Source: a virus | Taxonomy: Duplodnaviria; Heunggongvirae; Uroviricota; Caudoviricetes | IMG/VR virus record: IMGVR_UViG_2690316273_000003 | Span: 1-18,702 of that record | Direction: 5' to 3' (one strand) | Length of the DNA stretch: 18,702 nt | In this document: positions 1,493 through 3,861 of the stretch, piece by piece | Numbering within the stretch: position 1 is the first letter of the stretch | Layout: each line of letters opens with the position of its first letter | Made by a program: the position numbers and the translations under genes | Notes under the pieces: generated by a model | What the model saw: the letters and a program-made list of their open reading frames with translations, nothing else | Database searches by the model: none | What the model was told of the DNA's origin: nothing

Positions 1493-2863
1493 GTGCTAAT
1501 GTCTGCATCCCCTCTTGAATCCATGCCAAATTCCCTTAGTGCAGAACAAGCTGTACTTGGTGGCTTAATGCTTGATAACTGCCGCTGGGATGAAGTTGCA
1601 GATCGTATAGTTGCTGATGATTTTTATACCAGTGCTCATCGTGAAATTTTCAGTGAGATGGAGAGGTTATTAAGTCATGGCAAACCGATTGATTTGATAA
1701 CACTTGCTGAAGCACTTGAACAGAACGGTAAATTAGAACGCGCCGGTGGTTTTGCGTACCTTGCGGAGATGTCAAAGAACACGCCCAGCGCGGCAAATAT
1801 TTGTGCTTATGCGGATATCGTTCGTGAACGCGCGGTTGTTCGTGAAATGATTTCCGTCGCAAATGAAATAGCCGAAGCTGGATATGCGCAGGATGGCAGG
1901 GGCAGCAATGAATTGCTGGATATGGCCGAGCGCCGCGTTTTTGAAATAGCTGAAAAACGACAAAAGAGCGGTAGTGGTCCAAAAGATATCGCCAGCATTC
2001 TCGATGCAACGGTATCTCGCATAGAAGAGTTGTTTCAGCGACCACATGATGGTGTAACGGGGCTTGATACGGGATTTACCGATCTCAATAAGAAGACGGC
2101 AGGGCTTCAGCCGTCCGATCTCATCATTGTCGCCGCCCGCCCATCTATGGGGAAGACCACGTTTGCGATGAATCTCGTCGAAAATGCCGCAGTTCGTAAC
2201 GATAAGCCCGTATTGGTTTTTAGCCTTGAGATGCCGAGCCACCAGCTGATGATGCGCTCACTGGCTTCTCTTGCACGCGTTGATCAGACTCGTATTCGGA
2301 CAGGGCAACTTAACGACGAGGATTGGGCGCGGGTTTCTGGCGCAATGGGTATTCTGTTGGACAAGCAGAATATTTTTATTGATGACTCAAGCGCCCTGAC
2401 GCCGACAGAGCTACGTTCCCGCGCTCGTCGTGTTTATAAAGAAAATGGTGGTTTGAGCATGATTATGATCGACTACCTGCAACTTATGCGCGTCCCCGAG
2501 CTGCAAGATAACCGAACGCTGGAAATTGCCGAGATTTCTCGCTCACTGAAGGCGTTGGCGAAGGAATTACAAGTACCGGTGGTGGCATTGTCACAACTTA
2601 ATCGATCGCTTGAACAGCGTGCGGACAAACGACCGGTAAATTCAGATTTACGTGAATCAGGAGCAATTGAGCAGGACGCAGACCTGATTATGTTTCTGTA
2701 TCGCGACGAAGTTTATCACCCGGATAGCGAAATGAAGGGTATTGCCGAGGTAATTATCGGAAAGCAACGAAATGGCCCAATTGGCACGGTGAGATTGGCT
2801 TTTAACGGCCAATACTCACGGTTTGATAACTATGCCGGTGCTGACTGGCAAGAGGATTATTAA
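1493..2863 (+). CDS. dnaB: replicative DNA helicase, DnaB family (phage Ban-like)
   Basis: 456 aa ORF with Walker A (ARPSMGKTTFAMN), the DnaB signature LGGLMLDN and the C-terminal IEQDADLIMFLYRDEVY motif. Roughly 85% identical by eye to E. coli DnaB over most of its length, with a divergent N-terminus. The track start at 1493 is GTG; the ATG at 1499 with GGTGGAG upstream is the more likely start. Confidence 0.95.
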   Translation: MLMSASPLESMPNSLSAEQAVLGGLMLDNCRWDEVADRIVADDFYTSAHREIFSEMERLLSHGKPIDLITLAEALEQNGKLERAGGFAYLAEMSKNTPSAANICAYADIVRERAVVREMISVANEIAEAGYAQDGRGSNELLDMAERRVFEIAEKRQKSGSGPKDIASILDATVSRIEELFQRPHDGVTGLDTGFTDLNKKTAGLQPSDLIIVAARPSMGKTTFAMNLVENAAVRNDKPVLVFSLEMPSHQLMMRSLASLARVDQTRIRTGQLNDEDWARVSGAMGILLDKQNIFIDDSSALTPTELRSRARRVYKENGGLSMIMIDYLQLMRVPELQDNRTLEIAEISRSLKALAKELQVPVVALSQLNRSLEQRADKRPVNSDLRESGAIEQDADLIMFLYRDEVYHPDSEMKGIAEVIIGKQRNGPIGTVRLAFNGQYSRFDNYAGADWQEDY

Positions 2864-3861
2864 TGCAATGGAATGAGGAAAAGCCGATGAACATCCTGAT
2901 CATTGGGCGAAAATTTGCAGCCATCAGTGATGTGAAAACATATACGGAAATGTGGTCTTATAACCTGGCCTGCGCCTTTAGTGAGGCAGGGGTAACATTG
3001 CAATACCATCGTCCATATTCCCCTGGCGTCGAAAGCCCCGAGGATTATGTTGAAGCTGTGTTGACTGCTGCGACAGCATGTTCTGCGAAGGCCATTTTGG
3101 CACCAGGATTGAGGTATTTTACTACGGTACCCAGGGAAATAGGCATGCAACTGTGTCGCCGATTCTCTGGATGGGTAGCCCAGGTATATGACGGTTCTAT
3201 GCTGGATTCGGCACCAGTCGATATTACTTTTACTGTCCGCGATGATACCTGGCGGTACCTGGATAATCCCGGTCGGTTAGAACGTCATAATCGCTTTAAC
3301 AAACATGTTGGATGGGCAGCGAATCAGGAGCTGTTCCATCTGGAAACCAAAACGGACGATGTTCTGCGTATTTTTGTAGACCACGCTGCATTTGATGTTA
3401 GTGGTTTTGATCACTCCTTAAGTATCCTTATGAACCTTCAGCGTCTGACCGTTCCGTATGAGGCCAGAACGTTGACTGATGACGGATTGGTTACCATTGA
3501 TCCGGGGAATATTTCGGTAACTCCATACAGGCGGACGCCGGTGCCAGCAACCGAATTTGCAGCTGAATTGCGTAAGAGTGACGTTTTTATCGTTACGCAT
3601 CCCGAAAGCCTTGGATTAACTGTTCTTGAGGCGGCAATGTGCGGGGCGTTGGTATTAACGCCTCCCGATTGCCTTCCGCCAGATCGCCTGGCTTTGGTGA
3701 ACCATATGGTTATCAAGTCGCGGATTGATTGGGATGAGGTTATTGCTCGCGTTGATCGCGTGAAAAATGCTGAAAAGGTCCAGTGTCACACCTGGTCGGC
3801 AATTGCGGAAAAGATGCTTGAGACGTTTATCACGCAGAAACCGTCGCGCGGTAACGGATAA
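2863..3861 (+). CDS. GT-B fold glycosyltransferase (GT4-like; dnaB-neighbour gene, P1 dbn-like position)
   Basis: 332 aa ORF whose ATG overlaps the dnaB stop (TAATG). An alternative start at ATG 2887 has a better RBS (GAGGAAAAG). The C-terminal motif ESLGLTVLEAAMCGALVL matches the E-x7-E / EAMA-G signature of retaining GT4 glycosyltransferases. Confidence 0.65.
   Translation: MQWNEEKPMNILIIGRKFAAISDVKTYTEMWSYNLACAFSEAGVTLQYHRPYSPGVESPEDYVEAVLTAATACSAKAILAPGLRYFTTVPREIGMQLCRRFSGWVAQVYDGSMLDSAPVDITFTVRDDTWRYLDNPGRLERHNRFNKHVGWAANQELFHLETKTDDVLRIFVDHAAFDVSGFDHSLSILMNLQRLTVPYEARTLTDDGLVTIDPGNISVTPYRRTPVPATEFAAELRKSDVFIVTHPESLGLTVLEAAMCGALVLTPPDCLPPDRLALVNHMVIKSRIDWDEVIARVDRVKNAEKVQCHTWSAIAEKMLETFITQKPSRGNG

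What the first reader, a model, noticed from the sequence alone, without database searches (positions are those of the whole stretch)
2863..3861. GT-B (GT4-like) glycosyltransferase translationally coupled to the replicative helicase gene
The glycosyltransferase start overlaps the dnaB-like stop (TAATG), so the two are co-expressed, and a bidirectional terminator ends the pair. A GT4-type E-x7-E enzyme expressed together with a replication helicase is an unusual pairing. Co-expression with replication would fit a DNA-directed or replication-timed modification, but a host-envelope role is equally possible.
Basis: partly seen in the sequence, partly recalled or inferred. Interest (0 to 1): 0.5.

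Follow-up and report, generated by a model that had tools for sequence, protein, structure and literature searches.

The report
Phage P1 dbn: orphaned glycosyltransferase-cassette gene
The ORF is the already annotated phage P1 gene dbn, a divergent sugar-transferring enzyme whose position behind the helicase gene looks incidental, because in other phages it sits inside a four-enzyme sugar-chain-building cassette whose other three genes lie 6 kb away in P1.

Summary
The window is bacteriophage P1 or a near-identical P1-like plasmid prophage. ORF 2863-3861 is dbn ("downstream of ban"), annotated since 2004 as a possible glycosyltransferase. The sequence-level observation holds. This covers the TAATG stop/start overlap with ban, a GT-B fold closest to retaining GT4 enzymes, an invariant E-x7-E motif, and an 11-bp hairpin shared with convergent gene 5.

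The helicase pairing is not informative. About half of same-strand neighbours in this stretch of P1 overlap. Homologues start at Met9, and about 10% of P1-like genomes carry an extra ORF between ban and dbn. No non-P1 homologue lies next to a helicase.

The conserved partners are PmgO and PmgP (Maf/WaaZ-like transferases) and PmgQ (GT8-like). The order pmgO-pmgP-dbn-pmgQ is contiguous in several unrelated phages. Bacterial homologues sit beside WaaZ-like genes in ABC-transporter polysaccharide loci.

Dbn is therefore most likely one step of a glycan-building module acting on an envelope glycoconjugate. The acceptor is inferred, not shown. DNA glycosylation is unlikely. The gene is dispensable for plaque formation but under purifying selection. 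Interest is moderate to low.

The parts
1493..2863 (+). ban, the P1 DnaB-analogue replicative helicase (annotated start is the ATG at 1499). Upstream gene of the pair.
   Evidence: ORF listed. Pfam DnaB_C 361 bits and DnaB 121 bits. P1 record annotation.
2861..2865 (+). TAATG stop/start overlap between ban and the first ATG of dbn. AAGAGGA at 2850-2856 lies 6 nt upstream of that ATG.
   Evidence: Read directly from the sequence. Present in 70 of 80 P1-like viral contigs, TGATG in 2, replaced by an inserted ORF in 8.
2863..3861 (+). dbn (Glt in P7): soluble, acidic GT-B glycosyltransferase, GT4-like, 332 aa from the first ATG.
2875..2889 (+). Alternative and probably genuine start: Shine-Dalgarno GAGGA (2875-2879) and ATG 2887-2889 (Met9), giving a 324-aa protein that begins MNILIIG.
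   Evidence: Most homologues begin at this position with MK(I/L)L(I/V)IG. P1 variants L080-L088 have only this start, preceded by AAGGAG. Residues 1-9 of the model are coil with low confidence.
3598..3648 (+). Nucleotide-sugar-binding signature T-H246-P-E248-S-L-G-L-T-V-L-E256-A-A-M-C-G, containing the E-x7-E motif.
   Evidence: H246, E256 and G261 are invariant, and E248, S249 and G251 are at least 90% conserved, in 52 diverse members. This is the only region that matches Pfam Glycos_transf_1.
3883..3907 (.). 11-bp hairpin GAAAAGCCCGG / CCGGGCTTTTC with a short central loop, flanked by an A-run and a T-run. Likely bidirectional intrinsic terminator shared by dbn and convergent gene 5.
   Evidence: RNA folds on both strands: -17.7 and -20.8 kcal/mol, z = -3.8 and -2.4. 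Not called by the simple scanner.
3908..4540 (-). Gene 5 (baseplate), the convergent neighbour. First gene of the opposite-strand tail operon (5, 6, 24, 7, 25, 26) that separates dbn from its cassette partners.
   Evidence: P1 annotation. ORF list.
9796..10458 (+). pmgO: MptE/Maf/WaaZ-like putative (ulosonic-acid) glycosyltransferase, a cassette partner of dbn.
   Evidence: phrog_4603 'alpha-2,3-sialyltransferase', E = 4e-74. Pfam MptE-like 23 bits, below the cut-off. hhalign 92% to the WaaZ-like neighbours of bacterial Dbn homologues. Co-located with dbn homologues in L003, L004, L005, L093, L094, L098 and L100.
10356..10982 (+). pmgP: paralogue of pmgO. It lies immediately upstream of dbn in the contiguous cassettes.
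   Evidence: hhalign 97.9% to the PmgO profile. phrog_2111. Directly upstream of dbn in L005, L093, L098 and L100, and one gene further upstream in L004. A fusion protein MptE-like::Dbn exists (P0090).
10964..11656 (+). ppp, a Ser/Thr metallophosphatase. In P1 it occupies the slot between pmgP and pmgQ that dbn occupies in other phages. Probably not part of the module.
   Evidence: Pfam Metallophos 60 bits. P1 annotation. Absent from the contiguous cassettes.
11653..12354 (+). pmgQ: GT-A glycosyltransferase, GT8-like (D79-x-D81; H208-G-x-P-R-P-W). It lies immediately downstream of dbn in the contiguous cassettes.
   Evidence: phrog_1962 'glycosyltransferase', E = 1e-126. The profile hits GT8 structures: 6mw5 at E = 1e-5 and glycogenin at about 2e-3. 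Motifs. Position.

Best explanation
The ORF is phage P1 gene dbn. It encodes a soluble cytoplasmic GT-B glycosyltransferase of a small, discrete, GT4-like family that is probably retaining and nucleotide-sugar-dependent.

It is the last gene of the C1-repressed early ban operon, so it is made together with the helicase. That adjacency is a P1-lineage rearrangement, not a functional coupling.

Functionally, Dbn belongs with three other P1 proteins encoded 6-8.5 kb away in a second C1-controlled operon. These are PmgO and PmgP (Maf/WaaZ-like transferases of the kind that use CMP-activated ulosonic acids such as Kdo) and PmgQ (a GT8-like hexosyltransferase). In other phages the four genes form one contiguous cassette, pmgO-pmgP-dbn-pmgQ. 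In bacteria the core pair, WaaZ-like plus Dbn-like, sits in ABC-transporter capsule or O-antigen loci.

The module therefore most likely assembles a short hexose- and ulosonic-acid-containing glycan at the cytoplasmic face of the inner membrane, on a lipid-linked envelope acceptor of the infected cell. LPS core is the obvious candidate, because it carries the P1 receptor. Dbn would contribute one hexosyl transfer.

Shown: gene identity, fold, motif, purifying selection, gene-neighbourhood conservation, one gene fusion. Inferred: the donor classes, cooperation of the four enzymes, and above all the acceptor.
For: - Identity: 99.7-100% to P1 and P1-like plasmids, annotated Dbn/Glt.
- Discrete family: a profile search of 1.84 billion representatives returns only 377 proteins at E <= 1e-3, nearly all 300-340 aa and matched end to end.
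- Functional gene: intact in 81 of 81 P1-like loci, median dN/dS 0.12.
- Partners in phages: pmgO, pmgP and pmgQ homologues flank dbn contiguously in L093, L098, L100 (cultured E. coli phage EP_H11) and L004 (with one extra GT-A gene). L005 has the order P-dbn-Q-O. In L003 and L094 they lie on the same strand within 5-6 kb.
- Distant environmental homologues L142 and L143 also carry a PmgQ-like gene.
- Partners in bacteria: a WaaZ/MptE-like gene lies directly upstream in L095-97/L113 and Brucella L091, one small gene away in Colwellia L006-8, and within 1.5 kb in L099. These loci also hold ABC-2/ABC transporter, Poly_export or Wzz-like genes, further GT4 genes, and a kdsA-like ORF recognised by eye.
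- Gene fusions: MptE-like::Dbn (P0090) and Dbn::GT-A-like (P0146).
- Partner classes: PmgO is phrog_4603 'sialyltransferase'. PGAP names one gene of the pmgO-pmgQ block 'motility associated factor glycosyltransferase family protein'. PmgQ matches GT8.
- Regulation: both P1 operons carry C1 operators in the P1 record.
- No helicase is adjacent in any non-P1 locus. An inserted ORF separates ban and dbn in some P1-like genomes.
Against: - There is no biochemical evidence for any of the four proteins.
- Several assignments are below curated thresholds: Pfam Glycos_transf_1 at 25.0 against 26.4, and MptE-like at 19-28 bits against 34.6.
- In P1 the genes lie in two operons separated by the opposite-strand tail operon, so co-function rests on synteny elsewhere.
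- Knock-down of dbn, pmgO, pmgP or pmgQ, and the published deletions, give no plaque phenotype.
- The pmgO-pmgQ block is present at 80% coverage or more in 552 complete E. coli genomes, against 453 for dbn. The set is therefore not strictly co-inherited.
- Expression from C1-repressed operons during a short lytic cycle fits poorly with remodelling of outer-membrane LPS, which turns over slowly.
- The net charge of -8 does not suggest avid binding to anionic membranes.
- E. coli K-12 has no Kps exporter for a capsule-type product (established knowledge).
- The Maf-like partners could equally point to protein glycosylation.
Confidence: 0.5

Rival explanations
1. DNA glycosylation. Dbn, alone or with PmgO, PmgP and PmgQ, transfers sugars onto P1 DNA during replication to protect it from restriction or other nucleases, as the T4 alpha/beta-glucosyltransferases and the 5hmC-glycan clusters of other phages do.
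For: - Co-transcribed with a replicative helicase in an early operon, just downstream of the dmt methyltransferase gene.
- Phage multi-GT clusters derived from LPS or teichoic-acid enzymes are reported to put hexose, HexNAc, heptose and even Kdo on DNA (bioRxiv 10.1101/2023.12.21.572611).
Against: - The T4 alpha-glucosyltransferase match is rank 20 inside the generic retaining GT-B cloud. T4 beta-glucosyltransferase is not in the top 60.
- The known DNA glycosyltransferases need a hydroxymethyl-pyrimidine handle made by a C5 methyltransferase plus 5mYOX, or by a ThyS-type enzyme. No such domain is on record within 8-10 kb of any Dbn homologue, and none appeared among the ten pmg-region ORFs of the window (9054-17301) that were scanned.
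- Dbn is acidic (pI 5.6, net -8), as are 15 of the 16 homologues computed.
- Bacterial homologues lie in polysaccharide export loci.
- The helicase adjacency is not conserved.
- From established knowledge, P1 DNA is known to carry methylation only and is routinely cut, cloned and sequenced.
Confidence: 0.08
2. Protein glycosylation. The four-enzyme module decorates phage virion proteins, or a host protein, with a short glycan. This would resemble Maf enzymes glycosylating flagellin with nonulosonic acids, or the glycosyltransferases reported to glycosylate mycobacteriophage capsids.
For: - PmgO and PmgP belong to the MptE/Maf superfamily, and PGAP names one gene of the block a 'motility associated factor glycosyltransferase family protein'.
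- In L004 and L093 the cassette lies directly upstream of the terminase, portal and capsid genes.
- In P1 the pmg genes adjoin the tail operon and were named 'putative morphogenetic'.
- Structural matches of Dbn include the protein O-glycosyltransferases Gtf3, GtfC, GtfA and SdgB.
- Papers in the library cite virion glycosylation in mycobacteriophages.
Against: - PmgO and PmgP (about 200-220 aa) contain only the catalytic domain. From my own knowledge, Maf proteins are much larger and carry substrate-binding domains, so PmgO/PmgP are closer in size to WaaZ.
- Bacterial Dbn homologues sit in transporter-linked polysaccharide loci, not flagellar loci.
- The P1 virion proteomics paper does not mention glycosylation or any of these genes. 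That absence is weak evidence.
- The deletions have no plaque phenotype.
Confidence: 0.2
3. Stand-alone metabolic enzyme. Dbn works without the pmg genes and glycosylates a small molecule or a nucleotide-sugar-derived metabolite in the infected cell. This would resemble its best structural matches GlgM, BshA, MshA and the pterin glucosyltransferase. It might, for example, drain or alter a host metabolite pool.
For: - In P1 dbn is physically separate from pmgO, pmgP and pmgQ.
- About 100 E. coli genomes carry the pmg block without a close dbn.
Against: - Conserved synteny with two or three other transferases in every non-P1 phage locus except the Stenotrophomonas jumbo phage L101, together with the gene fusions, argues for a multi-step glycan.
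Confidence: 0.12
4. Decaying remnant. dbn is a cassette fragment stranded by rearrangement and no longer functional in P1.
For: - It is separated from its partners.
- It is nonessential.
- One P1-like metagenomic contig (L148) has dbn broken into three ORF fragments.
Against: - The reading frame is intact in 81 of 81 P1-like loci, with 53 distinct alleles and median dN/dS 0.12.
- All catalytic-motif residues are retained.
- It is present in 477 of 5426 complete E. coli genomes.
Confidence: 0.03

Closest known systems
CAZy GT4-type retaining GT-B glycosyltransferases (PimA, PimB', BshA, MshA, GlgM, WaaG, WaaB)
   Different: - Sequence identity is only 10-15%.
- Pfam Glycos_transf_1 falls just below its cut-off and there is no N-domain family hit.
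- A sequence-profile search of the PDB finds no GT4 enzyme at a significant E-value.
- The strand that in typical GT4 enzymes carries the G-R...K-G diphosphate-binding residues (motif recalled from knowledge, alignment by eye) instead carries an invariant D173-H174.
- The protein is shorter than typical GT4 enzymes (324 aa).
- It forms its own family of about 377 representatives.
WaaZ (KdoIII transferase of the E. coli K-12/R2 LPS inner core) and other MptE/DUF115-family transferases such as Maf. These relate to the partner genes, not to Dbn itself.
   Same: The gene next to Dbn homologues in bacteria matches NCBIfam WaaZ_KDO_III (57.5 bits) and Pfam MptE-like/WaaZ_KDO_III. P1 PmgO and PmgP belong to the same superfamily. 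From established knowledge (Frirdich et al. 2003, listed as a reference in PMC4690856), WaaZ overexpression truncates the LPS outer core, which is the region bearing the P1 receptor.
   Different: All matches are far below the equivalog cut-offs (57 bits against 200). PmgO and PmgP are shorter than WaaZ. No Kdo transfer has been shown. Dbn itself is not a WaaZ homologue.
T4 alpha-glucosyltransferase (GT72), T4 beta-glucosyltransferase (GT63) and the phage 5hmC-glycan biosynthetic clusters (Pyle et al. 2023 preprint)
   Same: Phage-encoded GT-B enzyme. It is expressed early with replication genes. The precedent clusters also combine several glycosyltransferases recruited from LPS-type pathways, and one of them adds Kdo.
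   Different: No hydroxymethyl-pyrimidine-generating enzyme lies in the neighbourhood. Dbn is acidic, whereas the preprint describes a positively charged groove in its DNA-acting GT-B enzymes. The structural match to alpha-glucosyltransferase is no better than to dozens of non-DNA enzymes, and beta-glucosyltransferase is not matched in the top 60.
Prophage seroconversion systems (GtrA/GtrB/Gtr-type, O-acetylases)
   Same: Phage-borne enzymes that alter host surface glycans. They are nonessential for plaque formation, and they are the obvious analogy for an envelope role.
   Different: From established knowledge, Gtr systems use a GT2 bactoprenol glucosyltransferase plus integral-membrane flippase and transferase proteins acting in the periplasm, and they are expressed in lysogens. 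Dbn is soluble with no transmembrane segment, is GT-B, is partnered by cytoplasmic-type transferases, and sits in a repressor-controlled operon.
Serotype-specific (region 2) glycosyltransferases of ABC-transporter-dependent capsule or O-antigen loci
   Same: The bacterial members of the Dbn family lie in such loci. Colwellia has ABC2_membrane, ABC_tran, Poly_export and a kdsA-like ORF. Brucella pseudogrignonensis has Wzz-like, ABC-2 and ABC genes plus two GT4 genes.
   Different: P1 and the other phages carry only the transferases. They have no exporter and no sugar-nucleotide synthesis genes.

Membership tests
GT4-like retaining GT-B glycosyltransferase (Pfam Glycos_transf_1 / CAZy GT4) | GT-B fold: two Rossmann-like domains with an inter-domain cleft | tested here: met
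GT4-like retaining GT-B glycosyltransferase (Pfam Glycos_transf_1 / CAZy GT4) | E-x7-E motif in the C-terminal domain | tested here: met
   E248-SLGLTVL-E256. E256 is invariant and E248 is at least 90% conserved in 52 diverse members.
GT4-like retaining GT-B glycosyltransferase (Pfam Glycos_transf_1 / CAZy GT4) | Score at or above the curated Pfam gathering threshold for PF00534 | tested here: not met
   25.0 bits against a cut-off of 26.4, residues 229-315 only. NCBIfam gives only noise-level hits. The precomputed table does list PF00534 for some cluster members, and NCBI names the protein 'glycosyltransferase family 4 protein'.
GT4-like retaining GT-B glycosyltransferase (Pfam Glycos_transf_1 / CAZy GT4) | Basic Arg/Lys pair at the start of the C-domain that binds the donor diphosphate | tested here: inconclusive
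   The corresponding strand reads L-R-I-F-V-D173-H174-A-A-F-D, with D-H invariant across the family. Correspondence was judged by eye, because model coordinates could not be superposed with these tools.
GT4-like retaining GT-B glycosyltransferase (Pfam Glycos_transf_1 / CAZy GT4) | Retaining transfer from an NDP-sugar (enzymatic activity) | not testable with these tools
   Needs purified protein and donor/acceptor assays.
Phage DNA glycosyltransferase (T4 alpha/beta-glucosyltransferase type; 5hmC-glycan clusters) | A hydroxymethyl-pyrimidine-producing enzyme (dCMP hydroxymethylase/ThyS-like, or C5 methyltransferase plus 5mYOX/TET) in the same genome or cluster | tested here: not met
   No such Pfam family is on record within 8-10 kb of Dbn homologues in L003-L005, L093, L094 and L098. 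None was found among the ten pmg-region ORFs of the window (9054-17301) that were scanned. The requirement is taken from bioRxiv 10.1101/2023.12.21.572611. The whole P1 genome was not scanned here; its lack of such genes rests on established knowledge.
Phage DNA glycosyltransferase (T4 alpha/beta-glucosyltransferase type; 5hmC-glycan clusters) | Specific structural similarity to T4 alpha- or beta-glucosyltransferase, above that to other GT-B enzymes | tested here: not met
Phage DNA glycosyltransferase (T4 alpha/beta-glucosyltransferase type; 5hmC-glycan clusters) | Positively charged DNA-binding groove | tested here: inconclusive
   Only bulk charge could be computed: pI 5.6, net -8, with both domains acidic. 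No surface electrostatics were available.
Phage DNA glycosyltransferase (T4 alpha/beta-glucosyltransferase type; 5hmC-glycan clusters) | Glycosylated bases in virion DNA | not testable with these tools
   Needs nucleoside LC-MS of P1 DNA.
Four-transferase phage cassette pmgO-pmgP-dbn-pmgQ (defined here) | Dbn homologue co-located on the same strand with MptE-like and GT8-like transferase genes | tested here: met
   Non-P1 phage loci L093, L098, L100 and L004 are contiguous. L005 is a permuted version. L003 and L094 have the genes within 5-6 kb. In P1 all four genes are present but split: 2863-3861 against 9796-12354. Exception: the Stenotrophomonas jumbo phages (L101) have a fused 552-aa homologue with no partner detected within 6 kb.
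Four-transferase phage cassette pmgO-pmgP-dbn-pmgQ (defined here) | The four proteins act on one glycan (functional cooperation) | not testable with these tools
   Supported only indirectly, by synteny and by the fusions P0090 (MptE-like::Dbn) and P0146 (Dbn::GT-A-like).
Gtr-type seroconversion module | Integral-membrane GtrA flippase and serotype-specific Gtr, plus a GT2 bactoprenol glucosyltransferase GtrB | tested here: not met
   Dbn has no hydrophobic segment (maximum Kyte-Doolittle 19-residue mean 1.53) and is GT-B rather than GT2. No Gtr-like Pfam families appear in any neighbourhood.

The most novel reading that the evidence does not exclude
Phage P1 and a scattered set of other enterobacterial phages and phage-plasmids carry an overlooked four-glycosyltransferase module: GT4-like Dbn, GT8-like PmgQ, and the two Maf/WaaZ-like enzymes PmgO and PmgP. 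In this reading the module builds a Kdo-type, ulosonic-acid-containing oligosaccharide during infection. In P1 its purpose would be to remodel the LPS core that carries the phage's own receptor, giving receptor masking that limits superinfection and loss of progeny on debris. Alternatively it would glycosylate virions. Either way, three 'putative morphogenetic' genes and dbn of a 70-year-old model phage would be reassigned to one pathway.
Probability: 0.25. Interest if true: 0.6.

Novelty: new member of a known kind. Interest (0 to 1): 0.33.

Why it matters
P1 is one of the most used phages in bacterial genetics. Even so, dbn, pmgO, pmgP and pmgQ still have no experimentally assigned function in the records and papers I could read. 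Linking them as one dispersed glycosylation cassette turns four 'unknown' or 'putative morphogenetic' labels into a single hypothesis. That hypothesis can be tested with simple genetics and LPS, virion or DNA mass spectrometry.

For the scan itself, the lesson is that a stop/start overlap with a replication gene in a tightly packed phage genome is not evidence of functional coupling. Comparative synteny pointed somewhere else entirely.

If the module modifies the LPS core, it would be an unusual case of cytoplasmic, Waa-like receptor remodelling by a phage, distinct from the periplasmic Gtr seroconversion systems. The gene is nonessential, already annotated as a possible glycosyltransferase, and belongs to a very common enzyme class. 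A specialist would therefore be only mildly surprised.

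Tried and rejected
- Viral-contig scan with the Dbn alignment: all 80 loci kept were P1-like. They served only for start-codon and selection statistics.
- Genome-contig scan: only 3 loci, of which one (Brucella) was informative.
Repeated with 17 sequences, it gave 47 loci. Of these, 42 have ban and/or gene 5 beside dbn (P1-like); the rest are L113, L142, L143, a short end-of-contig P1-like fragment, and the degraded L148.
- A sequence-profile search of the PDB with the Dbn alignment returned KtrA/RCK Rossmann domains (E = 7.6e-5, built from two domains each with i-Evalue near 1). 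GT4 enzymes appeared only at E 0.2-0.7. I treat the KtrA hit as generic Rossmann similarity, not homology.
- PADLOC gave no hit. NCBIfam gave only noise.
- The afdb50 fold library was not available. BFVD gave a Tupanvirus glycosyltransferase as the closest viral model (TM 0.76-0.79), which says nothing about the acceptor.
- The P1 genome paper (Lobocka et al. 2004) is not held in the library. No paper in the library discusses a function for dbn, pmgO, pmgP or pmgQ.
- A search for the L004 cassette in complete E. coli genomes found only the P1-type dbn.
- Considered and dropped: a tRNA-directed role, by analogy with the eukaryotic GT4-family queuosine mannosyltransferase. The idea arose because the ban operon also carries tRNA genes. 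Nothing in the synteny or the structural matches supports it, and it was not tested further.

Full report
**What the window is.** The 999-bp ORF is 99.7% identical to bacteriophage P1 (AF234172, NC_005856). It is 100% identical to several P1-like plasmid prophages of E. coli, and 96-98% identical to P7, RCS47 and SJ46. In the P1 record it is gene dbn ("downstream of ban"), product "function unknown, possible glycosyltransferase". P7 calls it glt. The upstream ORF is ban, the DnaB-analogue helicase (Pfam DnaB_C at 361 bits). The window runs from upl/tciA through ban, dbn, the opposite-strand tail/baseplate operon (genes 5, 6, 24, 7, 25, 26) and the pmgL-pmgV block to phd/doc.

**Checking the observation.** Every sequence-level statement is correct.
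- The ban stop TAA (2861-2863) shares its last A with ATG 2863.
- The predicted structure is confident (pLDDT 87.8, pTM 0.85) and is a two-domain GT-B fold.
- Foldseek against the PDB gives GlgM, tetrahydrobiopterin glucosyltransferase, PimB', PimA, BshA and Gtf3/GtfC (E from 3e-9 down to about 1e-6).
- The E-x7-E motif is E248...E256 within THPESLGLTVLEAAMCG. H246, E256 and G261 are invariant and E248 nearly so across 52 diverse relatives.
- An 11-bp hairpin at 3883-3907, with an A-run on one side and a T-run on the other, lies between the dbn stop and the stop of convergent gene 5. It folds well on both strands (z = -3.8 and -2.4). The consensus scanner missed it, apparently because the T-run is absorbed into the stem.

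**Three qualifications.**
- First, the family assignment is marginal by sequence. Pfam Glycos_transf_1 scores 25.0 bits against a cut-off of 26.4 and covers only residues 229-315. NCBIfam and PADLOC give nothing. The PHROG family is 'unknown function'. A profile search of PDB sequences finds no GT4 enzyme at a significant E-value. A profile search of 1.84 billion representatives returns only 377 proteins. Dbn therefore belongs to a small, discrete family that is GT4-like in fold and motif but is not a routine GT4.
- Second, the start is uncertain. Nearly all homologues begin at the residue aligned with Met9, as MK(I/L)L(I/V)IG, the usual first strand of a GT-B enzyme. ATG 2887 has its own GAGGA seven bases upstream. 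Residues 1-9 are low-confidence coil in the model.
- Third, the overlap is not special. From the annotated coordinates, 13 of 27 same-strand neighbour pairs in this part of P1 overlap, six of them by 1 or 4 nt.

**Is the helicase pairing meaningful?** No.
- Among 80 P1-like viral contigs, 72 keep the TAATG or TGATG junction. Eight instead carry a 101-aa ORF inserted between ban and dbn, with dbn starting at Met9 behind AAGGAG. Four metagenomic P1-like contigs show the same spacing.
- Outside the P1 lineage I recovered about a dozen independent loci encoding Dbn homologues at 26-58% identity. None has a helicase nearby.

**What the conserved partners are.** In a lambdoid-type phage contig (L093) the order is [PmgO-like][PmgP-like][Dbn][PmgQ-like], with overlapping stops and starts, just upstream of terminase.
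- L098 and the cultured E. coli phage EP_H11 (L100) have the same four genes in the same order.
- L004 has them with one extra GT-A-like gene.
- L005 has the order P-Dbn-Q-O.
- The Citrobacter-type phage-plasmids L003 and L094 have a pmgM-O-P-Q-R-S block, with dbn 5-6 kb downstream on the same strand.
- P1 has all four genes, but split. dbn is at 2863-3861. pmgO (9796-10458), pmgP (10356-10982) and pmgQ (11653-12354) lie beyond the tail operon. The phosphatase gene ppp occupies the slot between pmgP and pmgQ where dbn lies elsewhere.
- The P1 record places C1 operators in front of both operons, Oban and Oppp, so the two halves would be derepressed together.

**What the partners look like.**
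- PmgO is phrog_4603, 'alpha-2,3-sialyltransferase' (E = 4e-74). It has a sub-threshold Pfam MptE-like hit and weak CstII matches.
- PmgP is its paralogue (hhalign 97.9%).
- RefSeq annotation names one gene of this block a 'motility associated factor glycosyltransferase family protein'.
- PmgQ is phrog_1962, 'glycosyltransferase'. It has a D-x-D motif and an H-G-x-P-R-P-W motif. Its profile matches GT8 structures: 6mw5 at E = 1e-5 and glycogenin at about 2e-3.

**Bacterial relatives.** The bacterial relatives of Dbn tell the same story.
- In Colwellia (L006-8), a WaaZ/MptE-like gene precedes the Dbn homologue. It does so within a locus holding ABC-2 and ABC transporter genes, Poly_export, another group-1 glycosyltransferase and a kdsA-like ORF recognised by eye.
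- In L095-97/L113 the WaaZ-like gene (NCBIfam WaaZ_KDO_III at 57.5 bits, far below the equivalog cut-off) is directly upstream, and a hexapeptide acetyltransferase is downstream.
- In L099 the neighbours are MptE/WaaZ-like, a methyltransferase and a GT92 fusion.
- In Brucella pseudogrignonensis (L091) the order is Wzz-like, ABC-2, ABC, two GT4 genes, MptE-like, then Dbn.
- The PmgO profile aligns with these WaaZ-like neighbours at 92% hhalign probability.
- Fusion proteins exist: MptE-like::Dbn (P0090), Dbn::GT-A-like (P0146) and Dbn::methyltransferase-like (P0110).

**Interpretation.** The shown facts are as follows.
- Dbn is an intact, selected gene: 81 of 81 ORFs are intact, there are 53 alleles, and the median dN/dS is 0.12.
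- It has a GT4-like fold and donor-binding signature.
- It is soluble and acidic (pI 5.6, no transmembrane segment).
- Its conserved genomic company consists of two or three other transferases, not replication genes.

From these facts I infer that Dbn contributes one hexosyl transfer to a short glycan that also involves an ulosonic acid. The MptE/WaaZ/Maf class uses CMP-activated sugars, and E. coli supplies CMP-Kdo. Both of those points are established knowledge, not tested here.

The acceptor is the weakest step. I favour a lipid-linked envelope glycoconjugate for three reasons. The bacterial homologues are in surface-polysaccharide loci. The partner class includes the LPS inner-core enzyme WaaZ. 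All four proteins look like cytoplasmic Waa-type enzymes. LPS core is attractive because P1 adsorbs to it, as indicated by the galU reference cited in PMC12373910. In addition, WaaZ overexpression truncates the outer core (Frirdich et al. 2003, listed in PMC4690856; the content of that paper is from my own knowledge).

Several points count against this. Expression comes from repressor-controlled operons during a short lytic cycle. CRISPRi knock-down of dbn, pmgO, pmgP or pmgQ, and the deletions cited there, give no plaque phenotype (PMC10695390). The pmg block occurs in about 100 more E. coli genomes than dbn does.

**The DNA hypothesis.** It cannot be excluded, but it is poorly supported.
- The best precedent for multi-GT DNA glycosylation is Pyle et al. 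(bioRxiv 10.1101/2023.12.21.572611). It includes a Kdo adduct, but it depends on a C5 methyltransferase plus a 5mYOX dioxygenase, or on ThyS-type enzymes in the cluster.
- No such domains are on record around any Dbn homologue examined, or among the ten pmg-region ORFs of the window (9054-17301) that I scanned.
- The protein family is acidic.

**Protein glycosylation.** This is the more serious rival. It is supported by the Maf-like partners, by the cassette's position next to structural genes in L004 and L093, and by structural matches to Gtf3, GtfA and SdgB.

**Novelty and score.** The gene and its putative class are already in GenBank, and NCBI names the protein a family 4 glycosyltransferase. 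What appears not to be described in the papers I could search is that dbn, pmgO, pmgP and pmgQ are the dispersed parts of a four-transferase cassette that is contiguous in other phages. I rate the finding as a new, uncharacterised member of a known kind, of moderate to low interest (0.33).

Noticed in passing
window 9796-12354: pmgO, pmgP and pmgQ are annotated in P1 as 'putative morphogenetic function'. They look like glycosyltransferases: two MptE/Maf/WaaZ-like paralogues and one GT8-like enzyme with D-x-D and H-G-x-P-R-P-W motifs. Together with dbn they form a cassette that is contiguous in other phages.
   Followed up: yes
window 10964-11656: ppp (metallophosphatase, Pfam Metallophos 60 bits) sits exactly between pmgP and pmgQ. 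That is the slot dbn occupies in the contiguous cassettes of other phages, which suggests a gene replacement or rearrangement in the P1 lineage.
   Followed up: partly
L080 9699-10004 (also L081-L088; same ban-dbn spacing in L102, L116, L139, L145): About 10% of P1-like genomes carry an extra 101-aa ORF of unknown function inserted precisely between the ban stop and the Met9 start of dbn. It overlaps both neighbours.
   Followed up: partly
window 9054-9632 and 13991-14497: PmgM has a sub-threshold VRR-NUC nuclease hit (21.3 bits against 23.8). Pap matches the HAD_PNKP phosphatase domain (44 bits). Both are nucleic-acid or phosphate-processing accessory genes in the same early block.
   Followed up: no
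window 1137-1212: ARAGORN calls this a tRNA with a CAT anticodon (tRNA-Met). The P1 record annotates it as tRNA-Ile2 (lysidine-type). It lies in the ban operon upstream of ban.
   Followed up: no
L100 8394-9032 (Escherichia phage EP_H11, OP688485): The pmgP homologue of this cultured phage is not annotated in the GenBank record, which shows a gap between two CDS. It is clearly present at 46% identity to P1 PmgP.
   Followed up: partly
L148 5857-6492 and L141: In L148, which carries a P1-like gene 5, dbn is broken into three ORF fragments and is about 55% identical, so it may be a decaying or divergent allele. In another P1-like contig, L141, pmgO and pmgP lie only 3 kb from gene 5 on the opposite strand, so the tail genes appear to be missing or the contig is rearranged.
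   Followed up: no
L101 5590-7248 (Stenotrophomonas jumbo phage RAS14; also phage CM1): A 552-aa protein of these 319-kb jumbo phages contains a distant Dbn-like C-domain (26% identity over 194 residues). No PmgO, PmgP or PmgQ partner was detected within 6 kb. This is the one context that does not fit the cassette pattern.
   Followed up: partly
BFVD entry A0A6N1NPH0 (Tupanvirus soda lake): The closest predicted viral structure to Dbn is a 315-aa giant-virus glycosyltransferase (TM 0.76-0.79, 18% identity, E = 1e-17). That is much closer than any other viral model listed, which hints that the Dbn-type fold variant also occurs in giant viruses.
   Followed up: no
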